Source of the DNA: Candidatus Omnitrophota bacterium
Lineage (GTDB): Bacteria > Omnitrophota > Gorgyraeia > 1-14-0-20-64-10
Reading direction: 5' to 3'
Length of the DNA stretch: 64,000 nt
Assembly: GCA_023248155.1 (NCBI GenBank)
Contig: JAHFFE010000003.1
Span: 80,042-144,041, forward strand
In this document: positions 1,810 through 15,854 of the stretch, one piece after another
How the letters are laid out: each line of letters begins with the position of its first letter
Numbering within the stretch: the stretch's first letter is position 1
The notes under the pieces: generated by a model
What the model was told of the DNA's origin: nothing
The model's input: the letters and a program-made list of their open reading frames with translations, nothing else
Databases searched by the model: none
Program-made: the position numbers and the translations under genes

Positions 1810-3065
1810 TGCCGTTCATCAAGCCGTTCCGGGGTCTCCGGTATAATTTGAAAAAAGTTGGATCGATTAATTCGGTCGCAACGCCGCCCTACGACATCAT
1901 CTCTCCCGAACAGCAGCGCGCTTTTTACGCCAAACATCCAAACAATTTTATCCGCGTGGTTTACGGCAAGCCGCTTCCCGGCGATAACGATTCTTCGAAC
2001 ATTTATTCGCGCGCCAAGAAAACATTGGATGCCTGGGTTGCCGGCGGCATTTTATCGGCAGATAAAGAACCAAGTATTTATCCGTATCAGAAGGAATATA
2101 CGATCGGCGGAAAGAAATTTTCGCGGTGGGGAATTGTGACGCTGGTCCGTCTGGACCGGTCGGCCATCTATCCGCATGAAGAAACCCGCACGAAACCAAA
2201 ACAAGACCGGCTGAAACTTCTTGAAACATTGCAGGCATCGCTGAGCCCGTTGTTTGGTTTGATTCCGGACGGCAACCATGCCTACGAGAAACTGATCCGC
2301 GGCTGGGCCGGTAAGAAAAAACCGATGCTGACGGCGCGGCTGGATGGCGTGACGCACCGGGTCTGGGCAGTCAGCAAGCCGGCCGAGATTGCGCGGCTGA
2401 AGAAATTTCTTGCGGCCAAACCGCTGATTATCGCCGATGGACATCACCGCTGCGAAGCGGCGTTCATGTACCGCGACGCAATGAAGGCCAAGCAAAAAAA
2501 ATATTCGGCGGATGATCCGTCTAATTTTGCGATGTTTTATTTGTCAGCGGCCGGAGAAGAAGATCCGGGGCTTCTGCCGACGCACCGTGTTCTGCGCAAA
2601 GCAACGGCGGCCGGGCTAATCCAACTTGAGAAATCTATAACGAAAACTGCGCGGATTACCAAAGTGGCTACCTCGAAAGCGTTGCTGGAACGGCTGCATC
2701 GTTTGCGCGCAAAAGGGAAGGTGGCGGTCGGTTTTTACCGCAAGCGGGCGCCGCACTGGATCCTTGAAAGGAAAGCTGACAAACCCGGACAATTGGATGT
2801 AGAATGGTTGCATAACGATATCCTGATCCCATGGCTGGGATTAGCCGGGGACAAGGAACTCATTACTTTTACCCAGGATCCGCGCGAAGCGGTTGCCTGG
2901 GTAAAAAATAATAGGGCGGCCGCTGTTTTCTTTGTTCAACAGCCCCGCTTGACGGAAGTGTACCGGCGGGCGAAAGCACGGCAGCGGATGCCCCGCAAAA
3001 CAACCTATTTCCACCCGAAACCGCTGGCCGGGCTGGTGGAATATAAATTCGAGTTACCGGAATAA
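1809..3065 (+). CDS. DUF1015-family protein
   Basis: N-terminus MPFIKPFRGLRYN… and the ~420-aa length match the DUF1015 (COG4198) family. The start overlaps the upstream stop. Confidence 0.6.
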   Translation: MPFIKPFRGLRYNLKKVGSINSVATPPYDIISPEQQRAFYAKHPNNFIRVVYGKPLPGDNDSSNIYSRAKKTLDAWVAGGILSADKEPSIYPYQKEYTIGGKKFSRWGIVTLVRLDRSAIYPHEETRTKPKQDRLKLLETLQASLSPLFGLIPDGNHAYEKLIRGWAGKKKPMLTARLDGVTHRVWAVSKPAEIARLKKFLAAKPLIIADGHHRCEAAFMYRDAMKAKQKKYSADDPSNFAMFYLSAAGEEDPGLLPTHRVLRKATAAGLIQLEKSITKTARITKVATSKALLERLHRLRAKGKVAVGFYRKRAPHWILERKADKPGQLDVEWLHNDILIPWLGLAGDKELITFTQDPREAVAWVKNNRAAAVFFVQQPRLTEVYRRAKARQRMPRKTTYFHPKPLAGLVEYKFELPE

Positions 3066-3069
3066 TCCT

Positions 3070-3918
3070 ATGGCATTGTTTGGCAAGCCGAAGTACACGA
3101 TGGTTCAGGTCAAGAAGCGGGACATTCCCGAAGGACTCTGGACCAAGTGCGAAGAATGCGGCGAAATTGTCTACAATAAAGCCCTCGAAGACAACCTCAA
3201 AGTTTGCCCCAAATGCCAGTATCATTTCACGCTGACGGCCCAGGAGCGGATCGATCAGCTGATTGACGCGGGCACCTTCAAAGAACAGGACACCGGACTG
3301 CGCTCGGTTGACCCGCTGAAATTCAAAGGGCCGAAGACCTATGTCGAAAAAATGCAGCTCGACCAGGCGGCGACCGGCATGCATGAAGCGGCCATTTCCG
3401 GCGAAGGAAAACTTGGCGAAAAAACCATCGTCATTACCGTCACCGATTCGCGCTTCATCATGGGCTCGATGGGTTCAGTCGTAGGTGAGAAAATTACACG
3501 GGCGATTGACCGGTCGATCAAACTGCGTGTGCCGCTGGTGATTGTTTCCGGATCGGGCGGCGGCGCGCGCATGTACGAAGGAATGTTTTCGCTGATGCAA
3601 ATGGCGAAAACATCGGTCGCGCTGCAGCGCCACCACGAAGCGGGTCTGCCGTTTATTTCAGTGCTGACCAACCCGACAATGGCCGGCGTCATGGCCAGCT
3701 ACGCGAGTTTGGGCGATATTATTTTAGCCGAACCGAAAGCGCTGCTCGGGTTTACCGGTCCGCGCGTGATTGAGCAGACGATCCGCCAGAGGCTTCCGGA
3801 AGGTTTTCAGAAATCCGAATTTTTGATGGCGCATGGCATGGTGGACCAGGTGGTTCATCGGAAAGATCTTAAAGAGACGATTGGGATGATGCTTGGTTAT
3901 TTTCAGGGGGCTCAATAA
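3070..3918 (+). CDS. accD: Acetyl-CoA carboxylase carboxyltransferase subunit beta
   Basis: Has the N-terminal zinc ribbon CEECGEIVYNK…CPKCQYH followed by a carboxyltransferase fold (GSMGSVVGEKI, SGSGGGARMYEG). Confidence 0.92.
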   Translation: MALFGKPKYTMVQVKKRDIPEGLWTKCEECGEIVYNKALEDNLKVCPKCQYHFTLTAQERIDQLIDAGTFKEQDTGLRSVDPLKFKGPKTYVEKMQLDQAATGMHEAAISGEGKLGEKTIVITVTDSRFIMGSMGSVVGEKITRAIDRSIKLRVPLVIVSGSGGGARMYEGMFSLMQMAKTSVALQRHHEAGLPFISVLTNPTMAGVMASYASLGDIILAEPKALLGFTGPRVIEQTIRQRLPEGFQKSEFLMAHGMVDQVVHRKDLKETIGMMLGYFQGAQ

Positions 3919-3920
3919 GC

Positions 3921-5024
3921 ATGGCACAGGTTCGTCTGGAAGAAGTCTCAAAGGTCTATGACGGCGGCGTCAAAGCGGTTGACCGCGTCAGCATTGATGT
4001 TGATTCAAAAGAATTTATGGTGTTGGTGGGGCCTTCCGGCTGCGGAAAATCAACCACGCTGCGGATGATCGCCGGCCTGGAAGACGCCACCAGCGGAAAA
4101 ATTTTTATCGGCGACCGCCTGGTGAACCATGTGCCTGCGAAAGACCGCGACATCGCGATGGTGTTCCAGAACTACGCGCTTTACCCGCACATGACGGTGT
4201 TTGAGAACATGGCGTTTGGATTGTCGCTGCGCGGATATCCCAAATGGGAAATCGGGAACCGCGTGAAAGAGGCGGCCGACATTCTGGGCATCGCCCGGCT
4301 GCTGAACCGCAAACCGCGCGAACTCTCGGGCGGTGAACGCCAGCGCGTGGCGCTCGGCCGCGCGATCGTGCGCAAGCCGCTGGTCTTTTTGTTCGATGAG
4401 CCGCTTTCAAACCTGGACGCCAAACTGCGCGGGTTCATGCGCACGGAGCTCAATAAACTGCATTTGCGTTTGCAATCGACGATGGTCTATGTCACGCACG
4501 ACCAGATGGAAGCGATGACGCTGGGCAACCGGATTGCCGTGATGAACCAGGGACTCGTTCAGCAGATCGCCGATCCCGCCACGCTTTATGCGAAACCAAC
4601 CAACCGGCTGGTGGCCAGCTTCATTGGTTCGCCGCCGATGAATTTCATTGAAGGCCGCATACTTCGCCGCAACGGGCGGATGTTTTTTGAGGACGCGCTC
4701 TGCAAGGTGAAAGTCGTGGATGAGATGGTGCCGAAGCTGATCCGTTACGACGGAAAGAAAATTACGCTGGGCATCCGCCCCGAAGATATTTACGACAAGC
4801 TGTTTGTTCAGTACGCTCCTCCGGAGAATACCGTGACGGCCACCGTCGAAGTGGTTGAGCCGGTCGGGGCGGAAGTTTATCTGCATCTTCTGGTCGGCGC
4901 GCATCCGGTCACCGCGCGCGTCGGCGGACATGAGCGGCCGCGCGCCGGACAGGACATGGATGTCGTGTTTGACATGGCCAAAGTGCATTTCTTCGATCCC
5001 GAAACGGAAAACGCGGTTCTTTAA
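3921..5024 (+). CDS. ABC transporter ATP-binding protein, MalK/UgpC/MsmX-like (carbohydrate importer ATPase)
   Basis: Walker A GPSGCGKST, signature LSGGERQRVA, Walker B LFDEPLS. Has a C-terminal TOBE/MalK regulatory domain. No cognate permease or SBP genes are adjacent. Confidence 0.85.
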   Translation: MAQVRLEEVSKVYDGGVKAVDRVSIDVDSKEFMVLVGPSGCGKSTTLRMIAGLEDATSGKIFIGDRLVNHVPAKDRDIAMVFQNYALYPHMTVFENMAFGLSLRGYPKWEIGNRVKEAADILGIARLLNRKPRELSGGERQRVALGRAIVRKPLVFLFDEPLSNLDAKLRGFMRTELNKLHLRLQSTMVYVTHDQMEAMTLGNRIAVMNQGLVQQIADPATLYAKPTNRLVASFIGSPPMNFIEGRILRRNGRMFFEDALCKVKVVDEMVPKLIRYDGKKITLGIRPEDIYDKLFVQYAPPENTVTATVEVVEPVGAEVYLHLLVGAHPVTARVGGHERPRAGQDMDVVFDMAKVHFFDPETENAVL

Positions 5025-5029
5025 ACGCC

Positions 5030-6490
5030 TTGACTGCCCCGAACCTTGAAATATCGGGTGCCAGTATTCACGCCACAGCCGCTCAAAAAAAACGGATTCT
5101 TTTTTTTACCGCCGTTATTTTTCTTCTGATTCTTTTTTCTTCCCGCATCGGGCCGTGGGGTCCGCTTCTTCCTAAAGCCGTTTTATTCTGGTCGGCCCAT
5201 CTGTCGCTGCTGCTGTTGTTCATCTCATTTGCCTGGTATGGACCGGTCTGGGGCGTATTAACGCTGCTGGGAACGCTGGCGATTCTGCTGATGGTAGGGT
5301 TGGCCAGCCGCGACTGGTTGATGTTCGCGCTGCCGTTTCAGGCCGCTCTGTTGGGAGCCATTGCCTACTGGGGCGTTGAGCAGCATCGGAAACCATACCA
5401 GGAAACATCGGTGGCTCTGGAGAAGCAGTTGCAGGAAGTCAACAGTTTGCAAAGTGATCTGGCGCATCTGGAAGAATTACACCGGGGATCGGTTCAGCGG
5501 TTGAGCCGCTATCAGCATTTGCGCCGGATTGCCAACGCACTGAACCTGACGCTCGATACGGAAGCGCTTCTGGAAGTCATCGTGCAGTCGAGCAGTGAAC
5601 TGGTCAAAAACGCCGATCATGTGCTGCTCTATTTGGCCGACGACAAGGGGCTGGAGCTGCGTAAAGTCTGGCGGCGCGCCGGAACGCTGACGATTAAAGC
5701 CAAGCGCGGCGATGCGCTGGATCAGTGGGTGATGCGCCACGCACAGCCGCTGCTGGCCGAAGAATTGCGCCACGATTTTCGTTTTCCGGAAATTACGCCG
5801 GAACTGCTGGAACGGCCCTGCGGAGCGGTGCTGGCGGTTCCTCTGGTGAGTGAACACCGTTTTTTGGGCGTGCTGCGGCTGGAATCAGTGCAGGAACGGG
5901 GGCTTTTCTCGGATGACTTGCGGCTGATCCGAATTTTGGGTGACCTGGCGTCATTGAGTATTGAGAATGGCACGCTGTACGAACGGATGGCCCAGCTGGC
6001 GATGACGGATGACCTGACCGGCTTGATGGTTCGCGAGCAGTTCCTGAAGCAGTTCAAGCAGGAAATTCTCAACAGCCAGAAGACCCAAAAACCGTTTGCT
6101 GTCCTGTTGATCGATATGGACCATTTCAAAAGCTACAATGACCGGTTCGGCCACTCGGCCGGCGATAAACTGCTGAAACAGATCGCCCGTATTCTGAATA
6201 ATTTCCGAAGGCCCGGCGACGCGGCCGGCCGCTACGGCGGAGAGGAATTCGTTTCGTTGTTCTGCCAGACCGACCGCGATGAAGCAATCAAGCGGGCAGA
6301 GAACATCCGCGAGCGGATCGCTTCGACGCCGATTGAACTGCGCCGAGAAGTGGCGCAGGTCAGTGTTTCGATCGGCGTTGCGTTTTATCCCGAGGATGGC
6401 ACCGACCCGATGGTGCTGCTCGGGGCGGCGGACAAGCGGCTGTATCAAGCCAAAGCGCAGGGAAGGAATCGCGTATGCCATTCCGGATAA
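5030..6490 (+). CDS. Membrane-anchored GAF-GGDEF diguanylate cyclase
   Basis: N-terminal hydrophobic helices, a coiled-coil, a GAF-like segment and a GGDEF domain. The active site is RYGGEEF and an upstream RxxD I-site (RPGD) is present. The TTG start is uncertain. Confidence 0.8.
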   Translation: MTAPNLEISGASIHATAAQKKRILFFTAVIFLLILFSSRIGPWGPLLPKAVLFWSAHLSLLLLFISFAWYGPVWGVLTLLGTLAILLMVGLASRDWLMFALPFQAALLGAIAYWGVEQHRKPYQETSVALEKQLQEVNSLQSDLAHLEELHRGSVQRLSRYQHLRRIANALNLTLDTEALLEVIVQSSSELVKNADHVLLYLADDKGLELRKVWRRAGTLTIKAKRGDALDQWVMRHAQPLLAEELRHDFRFPEITPELLERPCGAVLAVPLVSEHRFLGVLRLESVQERGLFSDDLRLIRILGDLASLSIENGTLYERMAQLAMTDDLTGLMVREQFLKQFKQEILNSQKTQKPFAVLLIDMDHFKSYNDRFGHSAGDKLLKQIARILNNFRRPGDAAGRYGGEEFVSLFCQTDRDEAIKRAENIRERIASTPIELRREVAQVSVSIGVAFYPEDGTDPMVLLGAADKRLYQAKAQGRNRVCHSG

Positions 6491-7695
6491 CCCGCTACTG
6501 GCTGCTGGTGCTGGTCATCGGGCTTGCGATCAAAACAATTTTTATTCCGGTGCAGTTCATCGGCGTCTGCGTTGACTCGCTGGTGCTGGCCATCGTCATT
6601 ATTGGTTTAATCTATTCGATGAGCCTTGCGCAGTGGCTGGCAGTCGCGATGGCCGGCATTTCTATTTTTCGCGTGATCGAATCGGGGTATCCGGCCTGGA
6701 AACTGGCCGGCCCCTGGACCATCGCTATCGCGCTGATCTTTTTACTGCGCGTAAAAGACCGGCAGATCGCCCTCGTGCTGGATCGCGTCAAAACACAGGA
6801 CCAGGTATCAGTCCGCGAAGCGCTGACTTTCCTGACCGAGCACCGCAAGCAGCTGCGCGCCTCGATTACCGAGAAAGATGAGTTAATTCAGGAAATCAGC
6901 CAATTGTATCAGCTCTCGAAAGAATTTTTGGGAACGCTCGCTCCGGAAGACGCGCTGCGGCTGACGTCCGATTCGCTGGCCCGCCACGTTCCGTCGCTCA
7001 ATGAAACCGACCGGGCCGCCGCTATTGAAAAAATCAGAGCATTGGTGAATCAGGATAAGGTTTCCGTTGAGGCGATTATTCAAATGGTTCCGATGGCCGG
7101 GACCAATTTGCCGGTGCGCGAGCGGTGGGGTATCGTAGCCGGGCAGCTGGCGCTGGGACTGCAGCGCGCTTCCCTTTACCGCCAGGTCCAGGAATCGGCC
7201 ACGCATGACGGGCTCACGAAACTGCTGGTGCGCCGGCACTTTCTGGAACGGCTGACCGAAGAAGTCGGGCGGGCTGCCCGCCGCAGCATGGCGCTTTCGT
7301 TTTTAATGATCGACCTCGACTATTTCAAGCGGATCAACGATACCTACGGACATTTAGTCGGCGATGTAGTTTTGAAGGAAATTGCCGGGTTGATTCACGG
7401 ATCGGTCCGCGAAATGGATTTGGTCGGCCGCTATGGCGGGGAAGAGTTTGCCGTGATCCTGCCGGAAGCCGATCCGGTACTGGCGGTGCAGATTGCCGAC
7501 CGTATCCGATTAATGGTGGAAACCTCCCCGATTCGGGCTTATGATGAAGAGATTCGCGTGACGGTCTCCGTGGGTGTTTCGTCTTATCCGTCGAGCGCTT
7601 CCAGTGTGGAAGAGTTAATTGAGCAGGCGGATCAGGCGATGTACCGTGCCAAAACCGGAGGCCGTAACAAAACCAGCGTGGCATGGGAACCTTAA
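6475..7695 (+). CDS. Membrane-anchored GGDEF diguanylate cyclase (paralog of upstream gene)
   Basis: N-terminal TM helices, a coiled-coil/GAF-like region, a GGDEF domain with RYGGEEF and an REMD I-site. It overlaps the preceding gene by 16 nt. Confidence 0.8.
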   Translation: MPFRITRYWLLVLVIGLAIKTIFIPVQFIGVCVDSLVLAIVIIGLIYSMSLAQWLAVAMAGISIFRVIESGYPAWKLAGPWTIAIALIFLLRVKDRQIALVLDRVKTQDQVSVREALTFLTEHRKQLRASITEKDELIQEISQLYQLSKEFLGTLAPEDALRLTSDSLARHVPSLNETDRAAAIEKIRALVNQDKVSVEAIIQMVPMAGTNLPVRERWGIVAGQLALGLQRASLYRQVQESATHDGLTKLLVRRHFLERLTEEVGRAARRSMALSFLMIDLDYFKRINDTYGHLVGDVVLKEIAGLIHGSVREMDLVGRYGGEEFAVILPEADPVLAVQIADRIRLMVETSPIRAYDEEIRVTVSVGVSSYPSSASSVEELIEQADQAMYRAKTGGRNKTSVAWEP

Positions 7696-10001: not shown

Positions 10002-10009
10002 AGCCCCCT
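10002..10009. repeat. Left copy of 8-bp direct repeat AGCCCCCT (putative target-site duplication)
   Basis: An identical 8-mer lies at 12768-12775, immediately outside the terminal inverted repeats of the AT-rich insertion. Confidence 0.6.
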
Positions 10010-10036
10010 GGTAGTGGGTCAGTTTGAATCAACAAG
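10010..10036 (+). repeat. Left terminal inverted repeat (IRL) of the element
   Basis: See the alignment in the mobile_element entry. Confidence 0.65.
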
Positions 10037-10139
10037 AACTATCAAACTACATCAAATTATAGCAAGATATGGCCAATTGGTATAAAAAGTAGTACAAAGT
10101 GCCATAGCAGATGCTATACTTACTCTGTGGGCTTCTACA

Positions 10140-10388
10140 ATGTCAATTAAAACCATCGAATCTCAAGTAAAACACCAATCTATACTTTTGGCAAAAGAAC
10201 TGCCAAACCTCATTGCTTCTTCTTTGATGGTTGGCAAGTTTATTGCTTTCTTTAATGGTCAAACAGTCATTAAAGACACTCACGAAGAATGTTTTAAAGA
10301 AGCTGAAAAGTATTTCGGAAGCAGTGGCTTTGTTATTTCCGAAGTTACAGTGAAGAAGCTAATGGTTTCTTCGCTTGTAAAGTTTTAA
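10140..10388 (+). CDS. Small hypothetical protein (82 aa), possibly DUF5678-like, translationally coupled to the downstream protease
   Basis: The stop TAA is directly followed by the ATG of the next ORF. The segment VGKFIAFFNGQTVIKDTHEECFKEAEKYFG resembles, from memory, small partner proteins found next to clan-AA proteases. Not verifiable here. Confidence 0.4.
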   Translation: MSIKTIESQVKHQSILLAKELPNLIASSLMVGKFIAFFNGQTVIKDTHEECFKEAEKYFGSSGFVISEVTVKKLMVSSLVKF

Positions 10389-10757
10389 ATGCTGGCTGCT
10401 CGTACCCCGGATGGTCTCTATACTTTCCCGTTAACAATCGCATTTAAAGGCCCTATTAAAAAGCTCACAGGACTTGTTGATACCGGAAGCAATATATGTG
10501 TATGCACATATAAAATTCCTACCACTCTTAAAGCTAGAGCGACCAGCTTCGGTCCAATTTCAAGCGCTGTTTCTACTAAGACAGTCCAGGCATTTGGATA
10601 TTCTTTAAATGTCGGATTTGATGGAAAATCTGTGATGACGCATGTATATCGCCTGCCGTTAAATATGCCCGGCATAGACTTTATTCTGGGAATGCCTATC
10701 CTCTCTAAGTGCAATACTACGATAAAAGCTGACTGTATGGAGATCGAGTGGATTTGA
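10389..10757 (+). CDS. Retropepsin-like (clan AA) aspartic protease, single domain
   Basis: Catalytic LVDTGSN (D-T-G-S) motif plus the downstream hydrophobic-hydrophobic-Gly motif GIDFILGMPIL typical of retropepsins. The 122-aa size fits a homodimeric single-domain protease. Confidence 0.65.
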   Translation: MLAARTPDGLYTFPLTIAFKGPIKKLTGLVDTGSNICVCTYKIPTTLKARATSFGPISSAVSTKTVQAFGYSLNVGFDGKSVMTHVYRLPLNMPGIDFILGMPILSKCNTTIKADCMEIEWI

Positions 10758-10780
10758 GGGTTGCTTCGTAGGTATTTCCA

Positions 10781-11029
10781 GTGTATAGTGTGTTTATGCC
10801 TAAGCGGTCAAGTAAGGAAAAAGACGAGAACGAAATAGCCCGCTCTATCCTAGAGCAGGTAACACAGTCCGCGTCAGATCACCCACAAAAAAATCCTGCT
10901 GCTGTAGCACTCGGGCGCCTTGGCGGCCTCAAGGGAGGCAATGCCCGAGCGGCTTCATTGTCCTCTGAAAAACGAAAATCCATTGCCAAGCGTGCTGCCA
11001 AAGCCCGCTGGTCAAAGAATCAAAGATAG
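10781..11029 (+). CDS. Small basic protein with a C-terminal GGLKGG…ARW (KGG-like) motif
   Basis: LGRLGGLKGGNARAASLSSEKRKSIAKRAAKARW is a widespread motif in small proteins of unknown function from phage and mobile contexts. Which of two in-frame ATGs (10781, 10796) is the true start is uncertain. Confidence 0.5.
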   Translation: MYSVFMPKRSSKEKDENEIARSILEQVTQSASDHPQKNPAAVALGRLGGLKGGNARAASLSSEKRKSIAKRAAKARWSKNQR

Positions 11030-11089
11030 AAAAAATCCTTGCACGAATGAATAAATCTATGTATACTGCATTTCGTGGAGGAATACAAA

Positions 11090-11623
11090 ATGGATATGTT
11101 CAAATTGAGGTTAAAAATCGGTCTCAATGAATTCGAGGCCGAAGGTGATCGTGAAATTGTTCTGAAGCAAAAAGAGTGGTGGTTTGAGAAAGTACAAGTA
11201 GCGCCTGCCGTAGTAGTTCCCCTGAAAACTGGTGTGTTTTCTCCTACATCAAAAAAACATTCTTCCGATGACGCACCTGCGGTTCCTTCTGAATTAGATC
11301 GTGTTCTGTCTGTTCAGAAAGGAAAGGTTGTATTGCAGGCAAAATTACCCGGAGACGGAAAAGAGGGCGATATCATTCTGATGATTTTGCTTGGTTATAA
11401 AGAACTTCTGAATGTAGAGCCCGTTTCTGCGGTTGCTCTTGGAAAAAGCCTTCGTCTTTCTGGGGTAGGGATTTCGAGAGCGGATAAATATATTTCCGAA
11501 TTAAATGAAAAGAAGTTTGTTCTAACATCTGGTTTTCGGGTTGGATCGAAACATACGCTCACTATACCCGGAATTGCTAAAGCTAAGGAATCCGTGAGGG
11601 AGATTATGGCTTTACTAGAATAA
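11090..11623 (+). CDS. Hypothetical protein (178 aa)
   Basis: A strong RBS (GGAGGA) lies 7 nt upstream of the ATG at 11090. The six-frame track starts at GTG 11075. No recognisable family. It is followed by a GC-rich hairpin. Confidence 0.5.
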   Translation: MDMFKLRLKIGLNEFEAEGDREIVLKQKEWWFEKVQVAPAVVVPLKTGVFSPTSKKHSSDDAPAVPSELDRVLSVQKGKVVLQAKLPGDGKEGDIILMILLGYKELLNVEPVSAVALGKSLRLSGVGISRADKYISELNEKKFVLTSGFRVGSKHTLTIPGIAKAKESVREIMALLE

Positions 11624-11649
11624 AAAACCGGGGAGTTCTAGCTCCCCGG
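11622..11649 (-). terminator. Intrinsic-terminator-like hairpin oriented for minus-strand transcription
   Basis: A-tract 11622-11627, then stem CCGGGGAG / CTCCCCGG with loop TTCTAG (11628-11649). On the minus strand this reads as a hairpin followed by UUUUUU. On the plus strand no U-tract follows. Confidence 0.45.
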
Positions 11650-11685
11650 CTAAACCTATAACATTGCACCCTGTGGAGGAATACA

Positions 11686-11745
11686 ATGTTCGCCCTTTTA
11701 TGGGCGGTTGGCTTCATTCATATTCTAGCTAGACCGCCACCATAA
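11686..11745 (+). CDS. Possible 19-aa hydrophobic micro-ORF (MFALLWAVGFIHILARPPP)
   Basis: It is preceded by GGAGGA with a 5-nt spacer. The 14-nt stretch GTGGAGGAATACAA is identical to the translation-initiation region of the 11090 ORF. Speculative. Confidence 0.25.
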   Translation: MFALLWAVGFIHILARPPP

Positions 11746-11774
11746 GTCAACGAGTAGCCTTTGGTTACCTCGGT

Positions 11775-11828
11775 AAAAAAATAAAAGGGGATAGCGGATT
11801 TGCTTTTCTACGGCTGACCGCTATCCCC
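11775..11828 (-). terminator. Strong intrinsic-terminator-like hairpin oriented for minus-strand transcription
   Basis: A-tract AAAAAAATAAAA (11775-11786), then an 11-bp perfect stem GGGGATAGCGG / CCGCTATCCCC (11787-11797 / 11818-11828) with a 20-nt loop. On the minus strand it is followed by a U-rich tract. Confidence 0.45.
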
Positions 11829-11889
11829 ACCCCGAGTGTAACTTGATTGAAATTTACCATAGCCGCCTAATCATTTACAAATGTTTTGT

Positions 11890-11918
11890 TTGACAATGCT
11901 TGAGCGGTCAAGTATAAT
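11890..11918 (+). promoter_or_regulatory. Consensus sigma70 promoter for the transposase (TTGACA-17nt-TATAAT), predicted leaderless transcript
   Basis: -35 TTGACA at 11890-11895, an exact 17-nt spacer, -10 TATAAT at 11913-11918. The ATG at 11925 lies 7 nt downstream of the -10, with no Shine-Dalgarno. Confidence 0.6.
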
Positions 11919-11924
11919 ACTAAT

Positions 11925-12752
11925 ATGAACAAGTTAACCACACAAAAACAAACTGCGATTCTTTCCGCTCTCATAGAGGGGAACTCCATTAGGGCTACTT
12001 GCCGAATGACTGGCGTAGCCAAAGGAACCGTTCTGTCTCTCTTAGGGCGTGTAGGGCTGGCGTGCGCCGAGTATCAGAACATAACTCTTAAGAACCTGAA
12101 CTGTAAGCGGATTCAGTGCGACGAAATCTGGGCGTTCTGCTACGCAAAAGAAAAGAATGTGCCTAAGAAGCTACAGGGCAAGTTTGGCTACGGCGATATG
12201 TGGACTTGGACAGCATTGGACGCTGATAGCAAACTGATCGTCTCTTTCCTTGTAGGGAACCGAGACGCTTACACTGGTCGGATATTTATGCAGGACTTGG
12301 CTTCTCGATTATCCAACAAGGTTCAGTTGACTACGGACGGACACAGGGTTTATTTAGAAGCGGTCGAATATGCCTTCGGTGGGGATATTGATTACGCCCA
12401 GATAGTCAAGATTTACGGAACAGAACCCCAACCCCAGAATACACGCTATAGTCCTTCAAAGTGCTTGGGAACTCAGCAGATTAAAATTAACGGGGAACCT
12501 GATCTTCGGCATACCTCTACCAGCTATGTTGAACGGCAGAACCTAACTATGCGGATGAGTATGCGTCGGTTTACTCGGCTGACCAATGCTTTCTCAAAGA
12601 AGGCAGATAATTTGAAGCACGCCGTAGCCCTGCATTTCATGTATTATAACTTCTGCCGGATTCATCAGACCTTGAGGGTTACTCCGGCTATGGAAGCAGG
12701 CGTTACAAACCGAATGTGGGCGTTAGAGGACATTTTACGGCTTGCTAATTGA
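11925..12752 (+). CDS. IS1-family transposase, single-ORF fused InsA(HTH)-InsB(DDE) form
   Basis: The N-terminal HTH ILSALIEGNSIRATCRMTGVAKGTVLSLL aligns with the IS1 InsA helix-turn-helix. The DDE regions QCDEIWAFCYAK, LTTDGHRVY and YVERQNLTMRMSMRRFTRLTNAFSKK…YYNF parallel IS1 InsB ([42 protein letters not shown]…). Confidence 0.85.
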   Translation: MNKLTTQKQTAILSALIEGNSIRATCRMTGVAKGTVLSLLGRVGLACAEYQNITLKNLNCKRIQCDEIWAFCYAKEKNVPKKLQGKFGYGDMWTWTALDADSKLIVSFLVGNRDAYTGRIFMQDLASRLSNKVQLTTDGHRVYLEAVEYAFGGDIDYAQIVKIYGTEPQPQNTRYSPSKCLGTQQIKINGEPDLRHTSTSYVERQNLTMRMSMRRFTRLTNAFSKKADNLKHAVALHFMYYNFCRIHQTLRVTPAMEAGVTNRMWALEDILRLAN

Positions 12753-12767
12753 AATTGAACCACTACC
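12741..12767 (-). repeat. Right terminal inverted repeat (IRR) of the element
   Basis: The reverse complement matches IRL at 22/27 positions. It contains the transposase stop codon. Confidence 0.65.
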
Positions 12768-12775
12768 AGCCCCCT
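12768..12775. repeat. Right copy of 8-bp direct repeat AGCCCCCT (putative target-site duplication)
   Basis: Identical to 10002-10009. IS1-family elements make 8-9-bp duplications. Confidence 0.6.
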
Positions 12776-12841
12776 CATTTCCTAGACGGCTGTCGTTCGT
12801 CATGATAAAATATTCTTTTTAACCCCGCTCAAGGAGTTTTC

Positions 12842-14149
12842 ATGAATATCTGTGTCGTCGGCGCCGGACATGTGGGCCTGGTCACCGCGGTTGGATTCGC
12901 GGAAATGGGGCATTCCGTTATTTGTATGGATACGGACCCCAAGAAACTGGCTCTTCTACGGAAAGGCAAGCCCTGGTTTTTCGAGCCGGGACTGGCGCCT
13001 CTGCTGGTTAAAAATCTCAAGAAAAAACGGCTTTCATTCACCGATAAAATCGCCGATGGCGTGAAGAAATGTCCGATTTTGTTTATCGCGGTTGGTACGC
13101 CTCCGCTGGCCTCCGGCGAGGCCGATTTAACCGCCGTCGAAGATGTCGTGCGGCAAATTGCCGATTCGGCCACCGAATACCGGTTGATCGTTGAGAAATC
13201 AACCGTCCCGGTGGAAACCGGCCGCCGCGTCAAGCAGGTGCTGGGTCTGGCGATGCGCCGCAAAATACAGATCGACGTGGCCTCGAATCCAGAATTTTTA
13301 CGCGAAGGATCAGGCGTGGAAGATTTCTTCCATCCGGAGCGGATCGTGATCGGCGTCGAAACAGCCCGTTCACGCCAGCTGCTGGAACAGTTGTACAAGC
13401 CATTTAAGGTTCCGCTGGTTGTGACCGATATCGCCAGCGCCGAATTAATCAAGCATTCCTCGAACGCCTTCCTTTCAATGAAAATCTCTTTTATTAACGC
13501 GGTCTCCGTTCTGTGCGATAAAGTGGGCGCTGATGTTTCCCGTGTGGCCGAAGGGATGGGGTACGATTCCCGCATCGGTAAATCATTTTTGAATGCCGGG
13601 GCCGGTTATGGCGGTTTCTGCTTTCCGAAAGACCTTGAAGCTTATATCCGGATCGCCGACAAACTCGGTTATGACTTTCAATTACTGAAGGCGGTCAAGC
13701 AGGTTAATGACGGCCAGCGCAAGATCGTGGTGCAAAAAATCGAACGTGAATTGTGGAACCTGAAGGGAAAAGTGATCGGCGTGCTGGGGTTGTCATTTAA
13801 GCCGGACACTGACGACCTTCGGTTTTCGCCGGCACTGGAAGTGATCGAGATGCTGCTGAAGGCGCAGGCCTCGGTGCGCGTCTATGATCCGGAATCGATG
13901 GCAGGCGCCCGCGCGATGCTGAAGAAAAGCGTTGCCTATGCCAAGGATGCGTACGCGGCCGCGCGCGACGCCGACTGTCTGGTACTGATGACTGAATGGG
14001 CGGAATTCAAAAAACTGGATTTTAAGAAACTGCGCGATTTAATGAAACAGCCGGTGCTGATGGATGCGCGCAACCTGTATGATCCGGACCGGGTGCGCCT
14101 GGCCGGATTACGCTATCTGGGCATGGGCCGCGGGGGCGACTCGAAATGA
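12842..14149 (+). CDS. ugd: UDP-glucose 6-dehydrogenase
   Basis: N-terminal NAD-binding ICVVGAGHVGLVTA, the catalytic Cys region GGFCFPKD, and a UDP-binding C-terminal domain. A perfect AAGGAG RBS lies upstream. Confidence 0.85.
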   Translation: MNICVVGAGHVGLVTAVGFAEMGHSVICMDTDPKKLALLRKGKPWFFEPGLAPLLVKNLKKKRLSFTDKIADGVKKCPILFIAVGTPPLASGEADLTAVEDVVRQIADSATEYRLIVEKSTVPVETGRRVKQVLGLAMRRKIQIDVASNPEFLREGSGVEDFFHPERIVIGVETARSRQLLEQLYKPFKVPLVVTDIASAELIKHSSNAFLSMKISFINAVSVLCDKVGADVSRVAEGMGYDSRIGKSFLNAGAGYGGFCFPKDLEAYIRIADKLGYDFQLLKAVKQVNDGQRKIVVQKIERELWNLKGKVIGVLGLSFKPDTDDLRFSPALEVIEMLLKAQASVRVYDPESMAGARAMLKKSVAYAKDAYAAARDADCLVLMTEWAEFKKLDFKKLRDLMKQPVLMDARNLYDPDRVRLAGLRYLGMGRGGDSK

Positions 14150-14883
14150 AAGGCGTTATTTTAGCCGGCGGTCTGGGTTCCCGCATGCGTCCGCTGACGC
14201 TGGTCACGAATAAACATCTGCTGCCGGTTTACAACCGGCCGATGATCTATTTCCCGATTCAGGCGCTGGCCGATGCCGGCATCGATGAAATTTTACTGGT
14301 AACCGGAGGCAACAGCGCCGGTGATTTTCTGCGATTGATTGGAAACGGCTCTCAGTTTGGATTAAAGCATATGAGTTACGCCTATCAGAAAGGCGAGGGC
14401 GGCATTGCCGAAGCGCTGGGGCTGGCCGAGCATTTCGCTGCCGGGGACCGGATTCTCGTCATGCTGGGCGATAATATCATTCAGGGCAATATCGGGCCGC
14501 ATGTTCGTTCCTATCTGAAGCAGTCGTCTGGCGCAAAAATCCTATTAAAGAAAGTTTCGGATCCAGAACGGTTCGGCGTCGCGGTTCTTAAAGGCAAGAA
14601 GGTAATCGGGATTGAAGAAAAGCCGAAGAAACCGAAATCAAACTGCATCGTGACCGGCATCTACATGTATGACCAGCAGGTATTCCAGATTATTAAAACA
14701 CTTAAGCCTTCAGGCCGCGGCGAGCTGGAAATTACGGACGTAAACAACGCCTATATCCGTATGGGACAGATGTCGTACGATGTTTTAAGCGGATTCTGGT
14801 CCGATTGCGGTACCTTCGAATCGCTGTTGAATGCCACGAACCTGGTTGCCCGCAGTGAAACCCGCAAGGGAAAACGCTCATGA
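14146..14883 (+). CDS. Sugar-1-phosphate nucleotidyltransferase (glucose-1-phosphate thymidylyltransferase-like, short form)
   Basis: MKGVILAGGLGSRMRPLT…NKHLLPV is the nucleotidyltransferase signature. 245 aa. It precedes RmlB/RmlD-like genes. Confidence 0.8.
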   Translation: MKGVILAGGLGSRMRPLTLVTNKHLLPVYNRPMIYFPIQALADAGIDEILLVTGGNSAGDFLRLIGNGSQFGLKHMSYAYQKGEGGIAEALGLAEHFAAGDRILVMLGDNIIQGNIGPHVRSYLKQSSGAKILLKKVSDPERFGVAVLKGKKVIGIEEKPKKPKSNCIVTGIYMYDQQVFQIIKTLKPSGRGELEITDVNNAYIRMGQMSYDVLSGFWSDCGTFESLLNATNLVARSETRKGKRS

Positions 14884-15854
14884 AATTATTCGTCACCGGC
14901 GGCGCCGGATTTATCGGATCGAATTTCGTCCGCTGGATGCTGCGCCGCAATTCGGACCTTCAGATCGTCAACTTCGACAAACTGACCTATGCCGGCAATC
15001 TCGAGAACCTGCGCGAACTTGAGGGAAATGCCCGATACCGTTTTGTGCGCGGCGATGTCGCCAATGCCGCCGAAGTGGAAGAAGCGATGCGCGGCTGTGA
15101 TGCCGCCGTTCATTTCGCGGCCGAAACGCATGTCGACCGATCGATCCGCGACGCGTTCGAATTTCTGCGCACGAATCTGCAGGGCACCTATGTCATGCTC
15201 GAAGCGGCGCGCAAACTGGGCATCAAACGCTATGTCCAGATTTCCACCGACGAAGTGTATGGTTCTCTGCCCGAAGGGGCCGCCGATGAGCAGGGACATA
15301 TCCAGCCCAACAGCCCGTACGCCGCCAGCAAAGCCGGCGCCGATCATCTGGTCCGCTCGTACCATGTCACGTTTGGGCTTCCATGCCTGGTCGTGCGCGC
15401 CTCCAATAATTACGGGCCGTACCAGTTCCCAGAGAAATTTCTTCCACTATTGATCACCAATGCGATGGACAACCAGTCGCTGCCGATTTACGGCGATGGA
15501 AAATATGTGCGCGAATGGCTGTTTGTCGAAGATTTCTGCTCGGCGATCGAGCTTGTTTTGAGCAAGGGTACCGTTGGACAAATTTATAATGTCGGATCTG
15601 AAGTTCATAAAATAAATCTCGATGTTGTTCAGGCCGTCTTGAAGCGGATGGGCAAACCGGAAACGCTGGTACGGCATGTTCAGGATCGGCCCGGACATGA
15701 CCGGCGCTATGCGATCGTTTCGAACAAGGTTCGCGCGCTCGGATGGAAACCCAGCTGCACTTTTGAAGAGGGACTCGATCGAACCATCGCCTGGTATCAG
15801 GCGAATGAAGCCTGGTGGCGGCCGTTAAAGCAGAAGGTTATGTCGGTCGCGTGA
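14880..15854 (+). CDS. rmlB: dTDP-glucose 4,6-dehydratase
   Basis: Extended SDR with [24 protein letters not shown] (YxxxK) and a conserved RmlB-type C-terminus. Confidence 0.85.
   Translation: MKLFVTGGAGFIGSNFVRWMLRRNSDLQIVNFDKLTYAGNLENLRELEGNARYRFVRGDVANAAEVEEAMRGCDAAVHFAAETHVDRSIRDAFEFLRTNLQGTYVMLEAARKLGIKRYVQISTDEVYGSLPEGAADEQGHIQPNSPYAASKAGADHLVRSYHVTFGLPCLVVRASNNYGPYQFPEKFLPLLITNAMDNQSLPIYGDGKYVREWLFVEDFCSAIELVLSKGTVGQIYNVGSEVHKINLDVVQAVLKRMGKPETLVRHVQDRPGHDRRYAIVSNKVRALGWKPSCTFEEGLDRTIAWYQANEAWWRPLKQKVMSVA

What the first reader, a model, noticed from the sequence alone, without database searches (positions are those of the whole stretch)
10002..12775. IS1-family element that carries passenger genes, with intact TIRs and 8-bp target duplication
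The AT-rich 2.76-kb block between lptD and ugd is bounded by identical AGCCCCCT 8-mers. Immediately inside them are imperfect inverted repeats that match at 22/27 positions and begin GGTAGTGG. The only transposase is an IS1-family fused InsA-InsB ORF at the right end, whose stop lies in IRR. IS1 makes 8-9-bp duplications, so the whole block looks like one transposable unit. It is about three times the size of canonical IS1 and carries four non-transposition ORFs, including a retropepsin-like protease. Passenger-carrying IS1 relatives are not commonly described.
Basis: seen in the sequence. Interest (0 to 1): 0.7.

Follow-up and report, generated by a model that had tools for sequence, protein, structure and literature searches.

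The report
IS1-family transposon carrying passenger genes
The 2.76-kb AT-rich block between lptD and ugd is a complete IS1-family mobile element that carries extra genes, and it is a typical member of a large, little-described group of such cargo-carrying elements found in more than ten bacterial phyla.

Summary
The element spans 10010-12767 (2,758 bp). It has 27-bp terminal inverted repeats (22/27) that begin GGTAGTG, a perfect 8-bp target duplication AGCCCCCT, and a single-ORF IS1-type transposase whose stop lies in IRR. A related Omnitrophota genome has lptD followed directly by ugd, so the block is an insertion.

It is not a one-off. Of 69 related loci with both ends present, 60 have the same ends (GGTAGTGGGTCAGTTTGAA) and a perfect 8-bp duplication. 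Their lengths are 1.8-5.0 kb, and none is a bare IS.

The shared backbone is IRL, a conserved ~77-aa basic protein ("orf77"), a cargo slot, the transposase, an optional second cargo slot, and IRR. In many elements both core genes have near-leaderless promoters with the same palindromic operator. So orf77 is a core gene, not a passenger.

Cargo is highly variable and includes many toxin-antitoxin and defence-like genes (Rosmer RmrA, P63C, Panacea, RES/Xre, methylases). The window carries orf82 plus a retropepsin-like protein, and an orphan 177-aa protein with a 19-aa mini-ORF and a predicted antisense RNA.

It is a new variant of a known kind (transporter IS). Interest is moderate.

The parts
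10002..10009 (.). Left copy of the 8-bp target-site duplication, AGCCCCCT
   Evidence: It is identical to 12768-12775, and 60/69 related elements also have perfect 8-bp duplications.
10010..10036 (+). IRL. The first 19 nt are GGTAGTGGGTCAGTTTGAA, identical to the clade consensus.
   Evidence: I1; end consensus
10140..10388 (+). orf82, an 82-aa passenger ORF of unknown function. It directly abuts the next ORF (TAA then ATG).
   Evidence: no hit in Pfam, NCBIfam, PADLOC or PHROGs; absent from all related loci
10389..10757 (+). Retropepsin-like aspartyl protease passenger ORF (122 aa, DTGS motif)
   Evidence: Pfam RVP PF00077, E 4e-5, 24.3 bits against a cut-off of 20.7; no close relative in JGI metagenomes
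10760..10788 (+). Promoter-like site for orf77 (TTGCTT, 17 nt, TATAGT). The ATG lies 7 nt downstream.
   Evidence: read from the sequence; the same kind of promoter sits next to IRL in many related elements
10796..11029 (+). orf77, a conserved small basic protein (77 aa, ...KNPAAVALGRLGGLKGGxARA..L....R..IA..AA.ARW). It is the second core gene of the clade. An operator-like 16-mer lies at 10797-10812.
   Evidence: 4,913 cluster representatives with E<=1e-3; operator
11090..11623 (+). ORF177, an orphan passenger protein (177 aa)
   Evidence: 78% identical to the ORF at the same position in the L002 element; only one homologue cluster among 5.8 billion proteins; no family hit
11626..11651 (.). 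GC-rich hairpin that is terminator-like, with a T-run on the minus strand
   Evidence: conserved in L002
11686..11745 (+). Mini-ORF of 19 aa, MFALLWAVGFIHILARPPP*, preceded by a GGAGG Shine-Dalgarno sequence
   Evidence: conserved in L002 with 5 synonymous and 2 non-synonymous changes
11618..11716 (-). Predicted ~99-nt antisense RNA. Its promoter is TTGACT (11750-11745), 17 nt, TAGAAT (11727-11722), and it ends at the hairpin. One stem-loop contains a CCUCC anti-SD sequence.
   Evidence: promoter; fold -44.1 kcal/mol, z -5.9, and z -6.2 in L002. Not shown to be transcribed.
11787..11828 (+). Conserved hairpin GGGGATAGCGG...CCGCTATCCCC
   Evidence: z -5.1; L002 z -6.9, same stem, different loop
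11890..11918 (+). Transposase promoter, a perfect TTGACA-17-TATAAT. The palindromic operator TGCTTGAGCGGTCAAG (11897-11912) lies in the spacer, and the ATG is 6 nt after the -10 hexamer.
11925..12752 (+). Single-ORF IS1-family DDE transposase (275 aa) with an N-terminal HTH
   Evidence: NCBIfam IS1 NF033558 E 2e-16; Pfam DDE_Tnp_IS1 above cut-off; more than 8,000 homologues; HTH aligns with the IS1 InsA HTH
12741..12767 (-). IRR, 22/27 to IRL. It overlaps the transposase stop codon.
12768..12775 (.). Right copy of the 8-bp target-site duplication, AGCCCCCT
   Evidence: an independent contig (L007) begins exactly here

Best explanation
The block 10010-12767 is one autonomous IS1-family transposable element of the 'transporter IS' or small unit-transposon type. 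It inserted into the short lptD-ugd spacer of an Omnitrophota genome and duplicated the 8-bp target AGCCCCCT.

The proposed mechanism is inferred from the IS1 family. The single-ORF DDE transposase combines an InsA-like HTH with an IS1-type catalytic domain. It binds the GGTAGTG... terminal repeats and joins both ends to a target cut with an 8-bp stagger. Everything between the repeats moves with it.

The element belongs to a large clade with a fixed backbone: IRL, orf77 (a small basic protein), a cargo slot, the transposase, an optional second cargo slot, and IRR. In many elements both core genes have strong, almost leaderless promoters that carry the same palindromic operator. This suggests (not shown) autoregulation by an element-encoded DNA-binding protein.

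The slots hold fast-changing cargo, including many toxin-antitoxin and anti-phage-like genes. In this copy the cargo is:
- orf82 plus a retropepsin-like protein, placed in an unusual slot between IRL and orf77;
- ORF177 plus a 19-aa hydrophobic mini-ORF with a predicted antisense RNA, between orf77 and the transposase.

These cargo functions are unknown. An addiction or defence-type role is the best guess.
For: Shown:
- The TIRs and TSD are present, and the block differs in composition from the host.
- The transposase's best family match is IS1, and homologues are named 'IS1 family transposase' by NCBI and JGI.
- The lptD-ugd adjacency with a 48-bp spacer in a relative whose LptD is 59% identical serves as a synteny-level empty site.
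- A sister element (L002, transposase 72% identical) sits at a different site with a different 8-bp TSD (CCTAGGCT). It shares orf77, ORF177, the mini-ORF, the hairpin and the transposase (70-76% nt identity) but has a different left-end cargo.
- Of 69 related elements from more than 10 phyla, 60 have perfect 8-bp TSDs. Lengths are 1,817-4,969 bp (median 3,138) and none lacks cargo.
- A complete 3,370-bp copy with TSD CGCTGGTG lies on a plasmid of cultured Mesorhizobium loti.
- orf77 starts about 65-90 bp inside IRL in nearly all elements.
- The operator motif lies upstream of the transposase in 35/60 elements and near IRL in 27/60. It is 13 times denser inside elements than in their flanks.
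- Cargo is mostly singletons. Pfam and PADLOC hits include HTH+Peptidase_M78/RmrA, P63C/PD-Lambda-2_B, SocA_Panacea, Gp49, YdaS, NYN, DUF3800 and DNA methylases, and a RES/Xre pair.
- Elements with similar transposases usually carry unrelated cargo, and the reverse also holds.
Against: - No second copy occurs in the window, and no copy of this exact element was found at another site. The three other assemblies that contain it show the same site.
- IRR differs from IRL at 3 of the first 19 positions. This is at the high end for the clade, where only 7/60 elements have 3 or more differences, so this copy could be sluggish or inactive.
- The transposase scores below NCBIfam's IS1 cut-off (60.5 against 100 bits) and only just above Pfam's.
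- No nucleotide-level empty site was found, because the nearest relative is only 59% identical in LptD.
- Activity, regulation by the operator, the role of orf77 and the cargo functions are all inferred.
- The 80 loci sampled are those most similar to this transposase, so 'always with cargo' may not hold for the wider family.
Confidence: 0.9

Rival explanations
1. The element is a fossil. It arrived as a unit but can no longer move, and it is now a fixed, perhaps domesticated, insertion between lptD and ugd.
For: It is a single copy in the window, and only the same site is seen in three other assemblies. IRR has 3 mismatches to IRL in the first 19 nt.
Against: The transposase ORF is intact and keeps every residue that is invariant in the 25-sequence family alignment. 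Its promoter is a perfect sigma-70 consensus. The TSD is undecayed. The GC content is still about 10 points below the host's, which argues for a recent arrival.
Confidence: 0.25
2. The block is not one unit. On this reading, a ~0.9-1.3-kb IS1-like element lies next to unrelated horizontally acquired genes, and the left repeat and 8-mer identity are coincidental.
For: The left 786 bp (orf82 plus the retropepsin-like gene) has no counterpart in any related element. There is no second copy in the window.
Against: No internal IRL-like sequence lies upstream of the transposase. The first 19 nt of IRL equal the clade consensus exactly. An identical 8-mer directly abuts both ends. The same layout with a perfect TSD recurs in 60/69 related loci. 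L002 shows that the orf77-to-transposase segment travels inside the repeats.
Confidence: 0.03
3. orf77 is simply another passenger, for example a nucleoid-associated or antitoxin-like protein, and not part of the transposition or regulation machinery.
For: It has no similarity to IS1 InsA and no match to any solved structure, by sequence profile or by fold search of the predicted model. A homologue is annotated 'histone H1'. Its C-terminal motif also occurs at the N-terminus of P63C-domain cargo proteins.
Against: It is present in almost every element whatever the cargo, usually 65-90 bp from IRL and on the transposase strand. It shares the operator and promoter design with the transposase gene.
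Confidence: 0.3

Closest known systems
Canonical IS1 (E. coli IS1A and relatives; IS1 family)
   Same: The ends fit the family pattern GGnnnTG (here GGTAGTG). The target duplication is 8 bp. The DDE transposase is of IS1 type, and its N-terminal HTH aligns with the InsA HTH. The end pattern and the 8-9-bp duplication of IS1 are taken from my own knowledge of ISfinder.
   Different: The element is 2,758 bp against 768 bp. It has one transposase ORF with no insA/insB' frameshift and no InsA zinc finger. It has a separate conserved 77-aa gene unrelated to InsA. It carries cargo genes. Its promoters are internal and carry a shared operator.
Single-ORF and ISMhu11 subgroups of the IS1 family as listed in ISfinder
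   Same: From memory of the ISfinder/TnPedia family table, these are IS1-family elements without the classical organisation. ISMhu11-group lengths are listed up to about 4.6 kb, which implies extra genes.
   Different: I could not check this. No paper in the library mentions ISMhu11, and ISfinder is not available here. I do not know whether this clade, its orf77 or its operator is described there.
Transporter IS (tIS) of the IS1595 and IS66 families
   Same: Both have an IS-like structure (one transposase, TIRs, TSD) with passenger genes inside. The concept is stated in PMC7986276, PMC9330008 and the TnCentral preprint 10.1101/2021.05.26.445724.
   Different: The transposase family differs: IS1 is the best match and IS1595 scores only E 0.0017. 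[quoted passage not shown] In the present clade, cargo was found in every complete element examined.
Tn3-family transposons carrying toxin-antitoxin pairs
   Same: Small unit transposons in which toxin-antitoxin genes sit next to the transposition genes and travel with them (my own knowledge; not checked here).
   Different: The transposase family and mechanism are unrelated (Tn3 uses TnpA plus a resolvase and makes 5-bp duplications). Tn3-family elements are also much larger.

Membership tests
IS1 family | DDE transposase homologous to IS1 InsAB' | tested here: met
   IS1 is the best NCBIfam hit (NF033558, E 2e-16, 60.5 bits, below the 100-bit cut-off). Pfam DDE_Tnp_IS1 scores 26.2 bits against a cut-off of 24.1. 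Homologues are named 'IS1 family transposase' by NCBI and JGI. This is a divergent member.
IS1 family | Terminal inverted repeats with the GGnnnTG start | tested here: met
   Both ends start GGTAGTG. This is conserved in 59-60 of 60 elements. The family pattern is from my own knowledge.
IS1 family | 8-9-bp target-site duplication | tested here: met
   The window has an 8-bp duplication, and 60 of 69 related elements do as well.
IS1 family | insA/insB' organisation with a programmed -1 frameshift and an InsA zinc finger | tested here: not met
   There is a single 275-aa ORF. The N-terminus has no CxxC pairs, and only the HTH aligns with InsA. To my knowledge, single-ORF subgroups are accepted within the family, so this does not exclude membership.
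Transporter IS (tIS) / small unit transposon | Non-transposition genes lie inside the TIRs, and the TSD flanks the whole unit | tested here: met
   orf82, the RVP-like ORF, ORF177 and the mini-ORF lie between IRL and IRR, and the TSD lies outside both. The same holds in the related elements.
Transporter IS (tIS) / small unit transposon | The cargo demonstrably moves with the element (same cargo at different sites) | tested here: inconclusive
   The window and L002 share the orf77-ORF177-mini-ORF-transposase segment at different sites with different TSDs, but they are only 70-76% identical. No near-identical copy was found at a second site.
Composite transposon | Two IS copies flank the cargo | tested here: not met
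   There is only one transposase gene and only two end sequences in the region.
Type I toxin-antitoxin module (for the mini-ORF and antisense pair) | A small hydrophobic peptide gene overlapped by a cis-antisense RNA with its own promoter and terminator | tested here: inconclusive
   There is a 19-aa hydrophobic ORF under apparent purifying selection. A conserved antisense promoter and a terminator are present. The predicted RNA is strongly structured. Only two sequences are available, there are no expression or toxicity data, and there is no Rfam match.

The most novel reading that the evidence does not exclude
This element represents an undescribed, phylum-spanning IS1 clade that always carries cargo. 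It would be a minimal 2-5-kb shuttle with two core genes (the transposase and the 77-aa basic protein), both driven by near-leaderless promoters under one shared palindromic operator. Its two cargo slots turn over faster than the transposase diverges and are filled largely with toxin-antitoxin and anti-phage modules. In this copy the cargo includes an orphan protein with an sRNA-controlled 19-aa peptide that may be a new type I-like addiction module.
Probability: 0.4. Interest if true: 0.65.

Novelty: new variant of a known kind. Interest (0 to 1): 0.5.

Why it matters
IS elements are usually treated as transposase-only parasites, and IS1 is the textbook minimal example. This IS1 lineage carries cargo in every complete copy examined and occurs in Acidobacteriota, Nitrospirota, Omnitrophota, Planctomycetota, Chloroflexota, CPR bacteria, Proteobacteria and other phyla.

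Its cargo includes recognisable defence and toxin-antitoxin systems such as Rosmer-type RmrA, PD-Lambda-2-like proteins, Panacea and RES/Xre. If that pattern is general, the 2-5-kb elements are a simple vehicle for spreading such systems. The unannotated cargo, such as ORF177, orf82 with the retropepsin-like gene and the mini-ORF, would then be a list of candidate new systems.

The conserved orf77 and the shared operator also offer a tractable model for how an IS regulates itself. For genome annotation, the practical point is that these elements are several times longer than an 'IS1 family transposase' label suggests.

Tried and rejected
- **Exact-sequence look-ups.** Look-ups of the 275-aa transposase, the 182-aa version of ORF177 and the 769-aa LptD found nothing, because the gene callers used other start codons. 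The shorter versions P0001 and P0121 worked.
- **Nucleotide-level empty site.** None was obtainable. The closest LptD is 59% identical, and the JGI metagenome scans found no relative of the retropepsin-like protein and only the already known L004 contig for the conserved intergenic motif.
- **Contig L007.** It begins exactly at the right TSD. This fits a filled/empty polymorphism in a de Bruijn assembly, but the partner contig L088 ends 97 bp earlier, next to SNPs. I therefore treat this only as a hint.
- **ORF177.** There is no Pfam, NCBIfam, PADLOC, PHROG or PDB hit, and only one homologue cluster. The AlphaFold model had pLDDT 38, so it was not used.
- **orf77.** A sequence profile found nothing in the PDB. 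The model (pLDDT 74.5, four helices, pTM 0.34) had no Foldseek match in the PDB, and there is no similarity to InsA.
- **RNA searches.** Rfam found nothing credible in the element or the window, and no tRNA lies in the window.
- **Multi-copy check.** The Omnitrophota transposase P0098 showed the same site in all 10 places, so it gave no evidence of multiple insertion sites.
- **Literature.** No paper in the library mentions ISMhu11 or IS1-family elements with defence or toxin-antitoxin cargo. Two attempts to open the 2014 FEMS IS review failed.
- **Composite-transposon and internal-end readings.** Both were rejected.


Full report
**1.

The sequence shows AGCCCCCT at 10002-10009 and again at 12768-12775. 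Directly inside these copies lie IRL (10010-10036, GGTAGTGGGTCAGTTTGAATCAACAAG) and IRR (12741-12767, reverse complement GGTAGTGGTTCAATTTCAATTAGCAAG), which match at 22/27 positions. This pair is the longest inverted repeat in the region (I1).

The end motif occurs nowhere else in the window at two or fewer mismatches. The 8-mer occurs three times in 64 kb. The block has GC 0.36-0.46 against about 0.53-0.57 around it and is the only compositional outlier in the window.

- 10140-10388 (82 aa).
- 10389-10757 (122 aa). Pfam RVP scores 24.3 bits against a cut-off of 20.7.
- An 82-aa ORF whose real start, judged from homologues, is the ATG at 10796 (77 aa).
- 11075/11090-11623 (177 aa from the conserved ATG).
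- The transposase at 11925-12752, whose TGA stop lies within IRR.

**2. The transposase**

Its best family match is IS1: NCBIfam NF033558 at E 2e-16 (below the curated cut-off), and Pfam DDE_Tnp_IS1 just above its cut-off. IS1595, IS6 and IS481 score far worse.

It is a single ORF. The InsA zinc finger is absent.

More than 8,000 homologues of 59-72% identity and about 275 aa exist in public data. Many are named 'IS1 family transposase'.

**3. It is an insertion**

The host is an Omnitrophota bacterium, judging from the names given to the LptD homologues. In the closest available relative (LptD 59% identical; GCA_023248095.1 and an ENA contig), lptD is followed by ugd after 48 bp, with the same gene order on both sides. 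The 2.76-kb block is therefore absent from the ancestral arrangement.

The same filled site occurs in three other metagenome contigs. One of them (L007) begins exactly at the first base of the right TSD. This is what a filled/empty polymorphism would produce in a de Bruijn assembly, but I treat it only as a hint.

**4. A sister element proves that the internal genes travel**

The transposase P0002 (72% identical) lies in a 2,594-bp element in another Omnitrophota-like contig (L002). That element has ends beginning GGTAGTGATAAAGTTT and an 8-bp TSD, CCTAGGCT.

From orf77 to IRR the two elements are collinear at 70-76% nucleotide identity. ORF177 is 78% identical at the protein level. The mini-ORF and two hairpins are conserved.

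The left ends differ completely. The window has orf82 plus the retropepsin-like gene. L002 has a 145-aa membrane-like ORF on the other strand, and also a tRNA-Ser(ACU)-like gene upstream of the transposase promoter. The flanking host DNA is unrelated.

**5. The whole clade has this build**

A scan of one genome per species found at least 591 loci, and the 80 best were fetched. They come from Acidobacteriota, Nitrospirota, Thermodesulfobacteriota, Zixibacteria, Planctomycetota, Omnitrophota, Chloroflexota, a CPR bacterium, Verrucomicrobiota, Bacteroidota, Ignavibacteria and Proteobacteria.

I called ends with the consensus GGTAGTGGGTCAGTTTGAA and found both ends in 69 loci. Sixty of these have a perfect 8-bp duplication. 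Lengths run from 1,817 to 4,969 bp with a median of 3,138. None is a bare IS.

Cargo lies between orf77 and the transposase. In about half of the elements more cargo lies between the transposase and IRR, up to about 2.7 kb among the TSD-confirmed elements. A complete 3,370-bp copy with TSD CGCTGGTG sits on a plasmid of cultured Mesorhizobium loti.

The TSDs show a weak palindromic preference, CAAA...TTTG.

**6. orf77 is a core gene**

A homologue of the window's 77-aa protein is present in almost every element. It usually starts 65-90 bp inside IRL, on the transposase strand. The family has 4,913 cluster representatives at E<=1e-3 and no Pfam model. One member is annotated 'histone H1'.

The model is four helices, with pLDDT 74.5 and no structural match. 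The protein is unrelated to InsA. Its C-terminal motif also forms the N-terminus of P63C-domain cargo proteins.

In the window, orf77 lies 786 bp from IRL, because orf82 and the retropepsin-like gene sit in between. This placement is unusual; it is also seen in L019 and L033.

**7. Shared regulatory design**

Upstream of the transposase, the window has a perfect TTGACA-17-TATAAT promoter (11890-11918), and most related elements have a similar TTGACA/TATAAT-type promoter there. The palindrome TGCTTGAGCGGTCAAG lies in the spacer, and the ATG follows the -10 hexamer by 6-10 nt, so the mRNA would be nearly leaderless.

The same motif lies in the orf77 promoter or over its start codon (window 10797-10812). 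At four or fewer mismatches in 16, the motif is found upstream of the transposase in 35/60 elements and near IRL in 27/60. It is 13 times denser inside elements than in their flanks. I infer common control by an element-encoded DNA-binding protein. Which protein this is remains unknown.

**8. Cargo**

Of 179 cargo ORFs, most are singletons. Among the 143 ORFs of at least 100 aa, hits include:
- Pfam: HTH_3 (16), Peptidase_M78 (9), P63C (6), SDH-type protease (4), proteasome-like (4), SocA_Panacea (3), DUF3800 (3), DNA methylase (2), NYN (2), Gp49 (2), YdaS (2) and RhuM (1).
- PADLOC: Rosmer RmrA (7, E down to 1e-144), RmrT, capP/capH, PD-Lambda-2_B (6) and type II methylases.
- A RES/Xre pair in Acidiphilium.

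Elements with transposases 75-88% identical mostly carry unrelated cargo. Elements with homologous cargo have transposases no more alike than random pairs. Two elements in one Terriglobia genome share a 96% identical transposase but differ in much of their cargo. Cargo therefore turns over faster than the backbone diverges.

The window's own cargo proteins match no defence or phage family.

**9. The ORF177 region**

Downstream of ORF177 there is a GC-rich hairpin (11626-11651) with a T-run on the minus strand. Next comes a 19-aa ORF (11686-11745, MFALLWAVGFIHILARPPP). It is conserved in L002 with five synonymous and two non-synonymous changes.

On the minus strand there is a conserved promoter-like site: TTGACT-17-TAGAAT here, and TTGACT-17-TAAGAT in L002. 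The resulting ~99-nt antisense RNA would fold very stably, with z -5.9 here and -6.2 in L002. One of its stem-loops contains a CCUCC sequence.

The 14-mer GTGGAGGAATACAA that forms the mini-ORF ribosome-binding site is repeated exactly at the ORF177 ribosome-binding site (D17), and this is also true in L002. The RNA could therefore act on both genes. This resembles a type I toxin-antitoxin arrangement, but it rests on two sequences and on no expression data.

**10. Comparison with what is known**

The element meets the IS1 criteria of transposase homology, GGnnnTG ends and an 8-bp duplication. It does not have the insA/insB' frameshift organisation. To my knowledge, single-ORF subgroups are accepted in the family.

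IS elements with passenger genes (tIS) are an established concept (PMC7986276, PMC9330008). [quoted passage not shown] From memory, ISfinder lists an IS1 subgroup (ISMhu11) with lengths up to about 4.6 kb. I could not verify this or its relation to the present clade.

I found no paper that describes IS1-family elements with defence or toxin-antitoxin cargo, a conserved orf77-type gene or the operator.

**11. Verdict**

orf77 is a core gene, and cargo carriage is the rule in this clade.

For this single copy, mobility is inferred rather than shown. It is a single copy and its IRR is slightly diverged, so it may be sluggish. Its intact transposase gene, perfect promoter, undecayed TSD and foreign GC content argue that it arrived recently.

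I rate it a new variant of a known kind, of moderate interest. The main value lies in the clade-level picture and in the unannotated cargo.

Noticed in passing
window 11618-11750 (both strands): A 19-aa hydrophobic mini-ORF ending in RPPP-stop is overlapped by a predicted ~99-nt antisense RNA with its own conserved promoter and terminator (z about -6). The RNA's CCUCC-containing stem-loop is also complementary to the identical 14-nt ribosome-binding region of ORF177 (11075-11088 and 11673-11686). It may be a type I toxin-antitoxin-like or sRNA-controlled module.
   Followed up: partly
window 11787-11828; L002 4295-4340: A conserved 11-bp-stem hairpin, GGGGATAGCGG...CCGCTATCCCC, lies between the mini-ORF and the transposase promoter. 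The loop differs between the two elements and there is no T-run. Its function is unknown.
   Followed up: partly
L002 4362-4453 (also L004 3136-3227): The sister element carries a tRNA-Ser-like gene with the unusual anticodon ACU, inside the element just upstream of the transposase promoter. The window's element lacks it.
   Followed up: no
window 11890-11924 and 10760-10812; related loci: In many elements both core genes appear to be almost leaderless, with the ATG 6-10 nt after the -10 hexamer. They share a palindromic operator, TGCTTGAGCGGTCAAG. In some elements the operator overlaps the orf77 start codon, so that it encodes the N-terminus M-P/L-K-R-S.
   Followed up: partly
L013, L019, L022, L026, L038, L043 (cargo ORFs of 337-387 aa) and L059 (a 400-aa ORF carrying the same motif): P63C-domain / PD-Lambda-2_B-like cargo proteins in several of these elements begin with the same GG.ARA..L....R..IA..AA.ARW motif that forms the C-terminus of orf77. 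L026 and L043 lack a separate orf77.
   Followed up: no
L002 (element 2808-5401) and L095 (transposase 6001-6825): Two different lineages of the clade (transposases P0002 and P0098) both sit just upstream of a CT398_CC/Zn_ribbon_9 gene followed by mraZ in Omnitrophota genomes. This could be an old shared insertion or a preferred site.
   Followed up: no
60 related elements: The 8-bp target duplications show a weak palindromic preference, C-A-A-A...T-T-T-G. The window's AGCCCCCT does not fit it.
   Followed up: partly
L007 position 1 = window 12768; L088 end = window 12670: In assembly ERZ27280021 one contig starts exactly at the right TSD, and the lptD contig stops inside the transposase gene next to two SNPs (12659, 12665). 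This suggests strain heterogeneity or a filled/empty polymorphism at this locus.
   Followed up: partly
L092 2575-2784 (CP050295.1, Mesorhizobium loti plasmid): The orf77 homologue of a complete 3,370-bp element in a cultured rhizobium is annotated 'histone H1'. The cargo there is an HTH-domain protein plus a hypothetical protein.
   Followed up: partly
window 6475-7695 and upstream; 12842-15854: The insertion lies between a GGDEF-protein/lptD block and a ugd-rfbA-rfbB nucleotide-sugar (envelope polysaccharide) cluster. A promoter-like site for ugd (TAGACG, 17 nt, TAAAAT, 12783-12811) remains downstream of the insertion.
   Followed up: no
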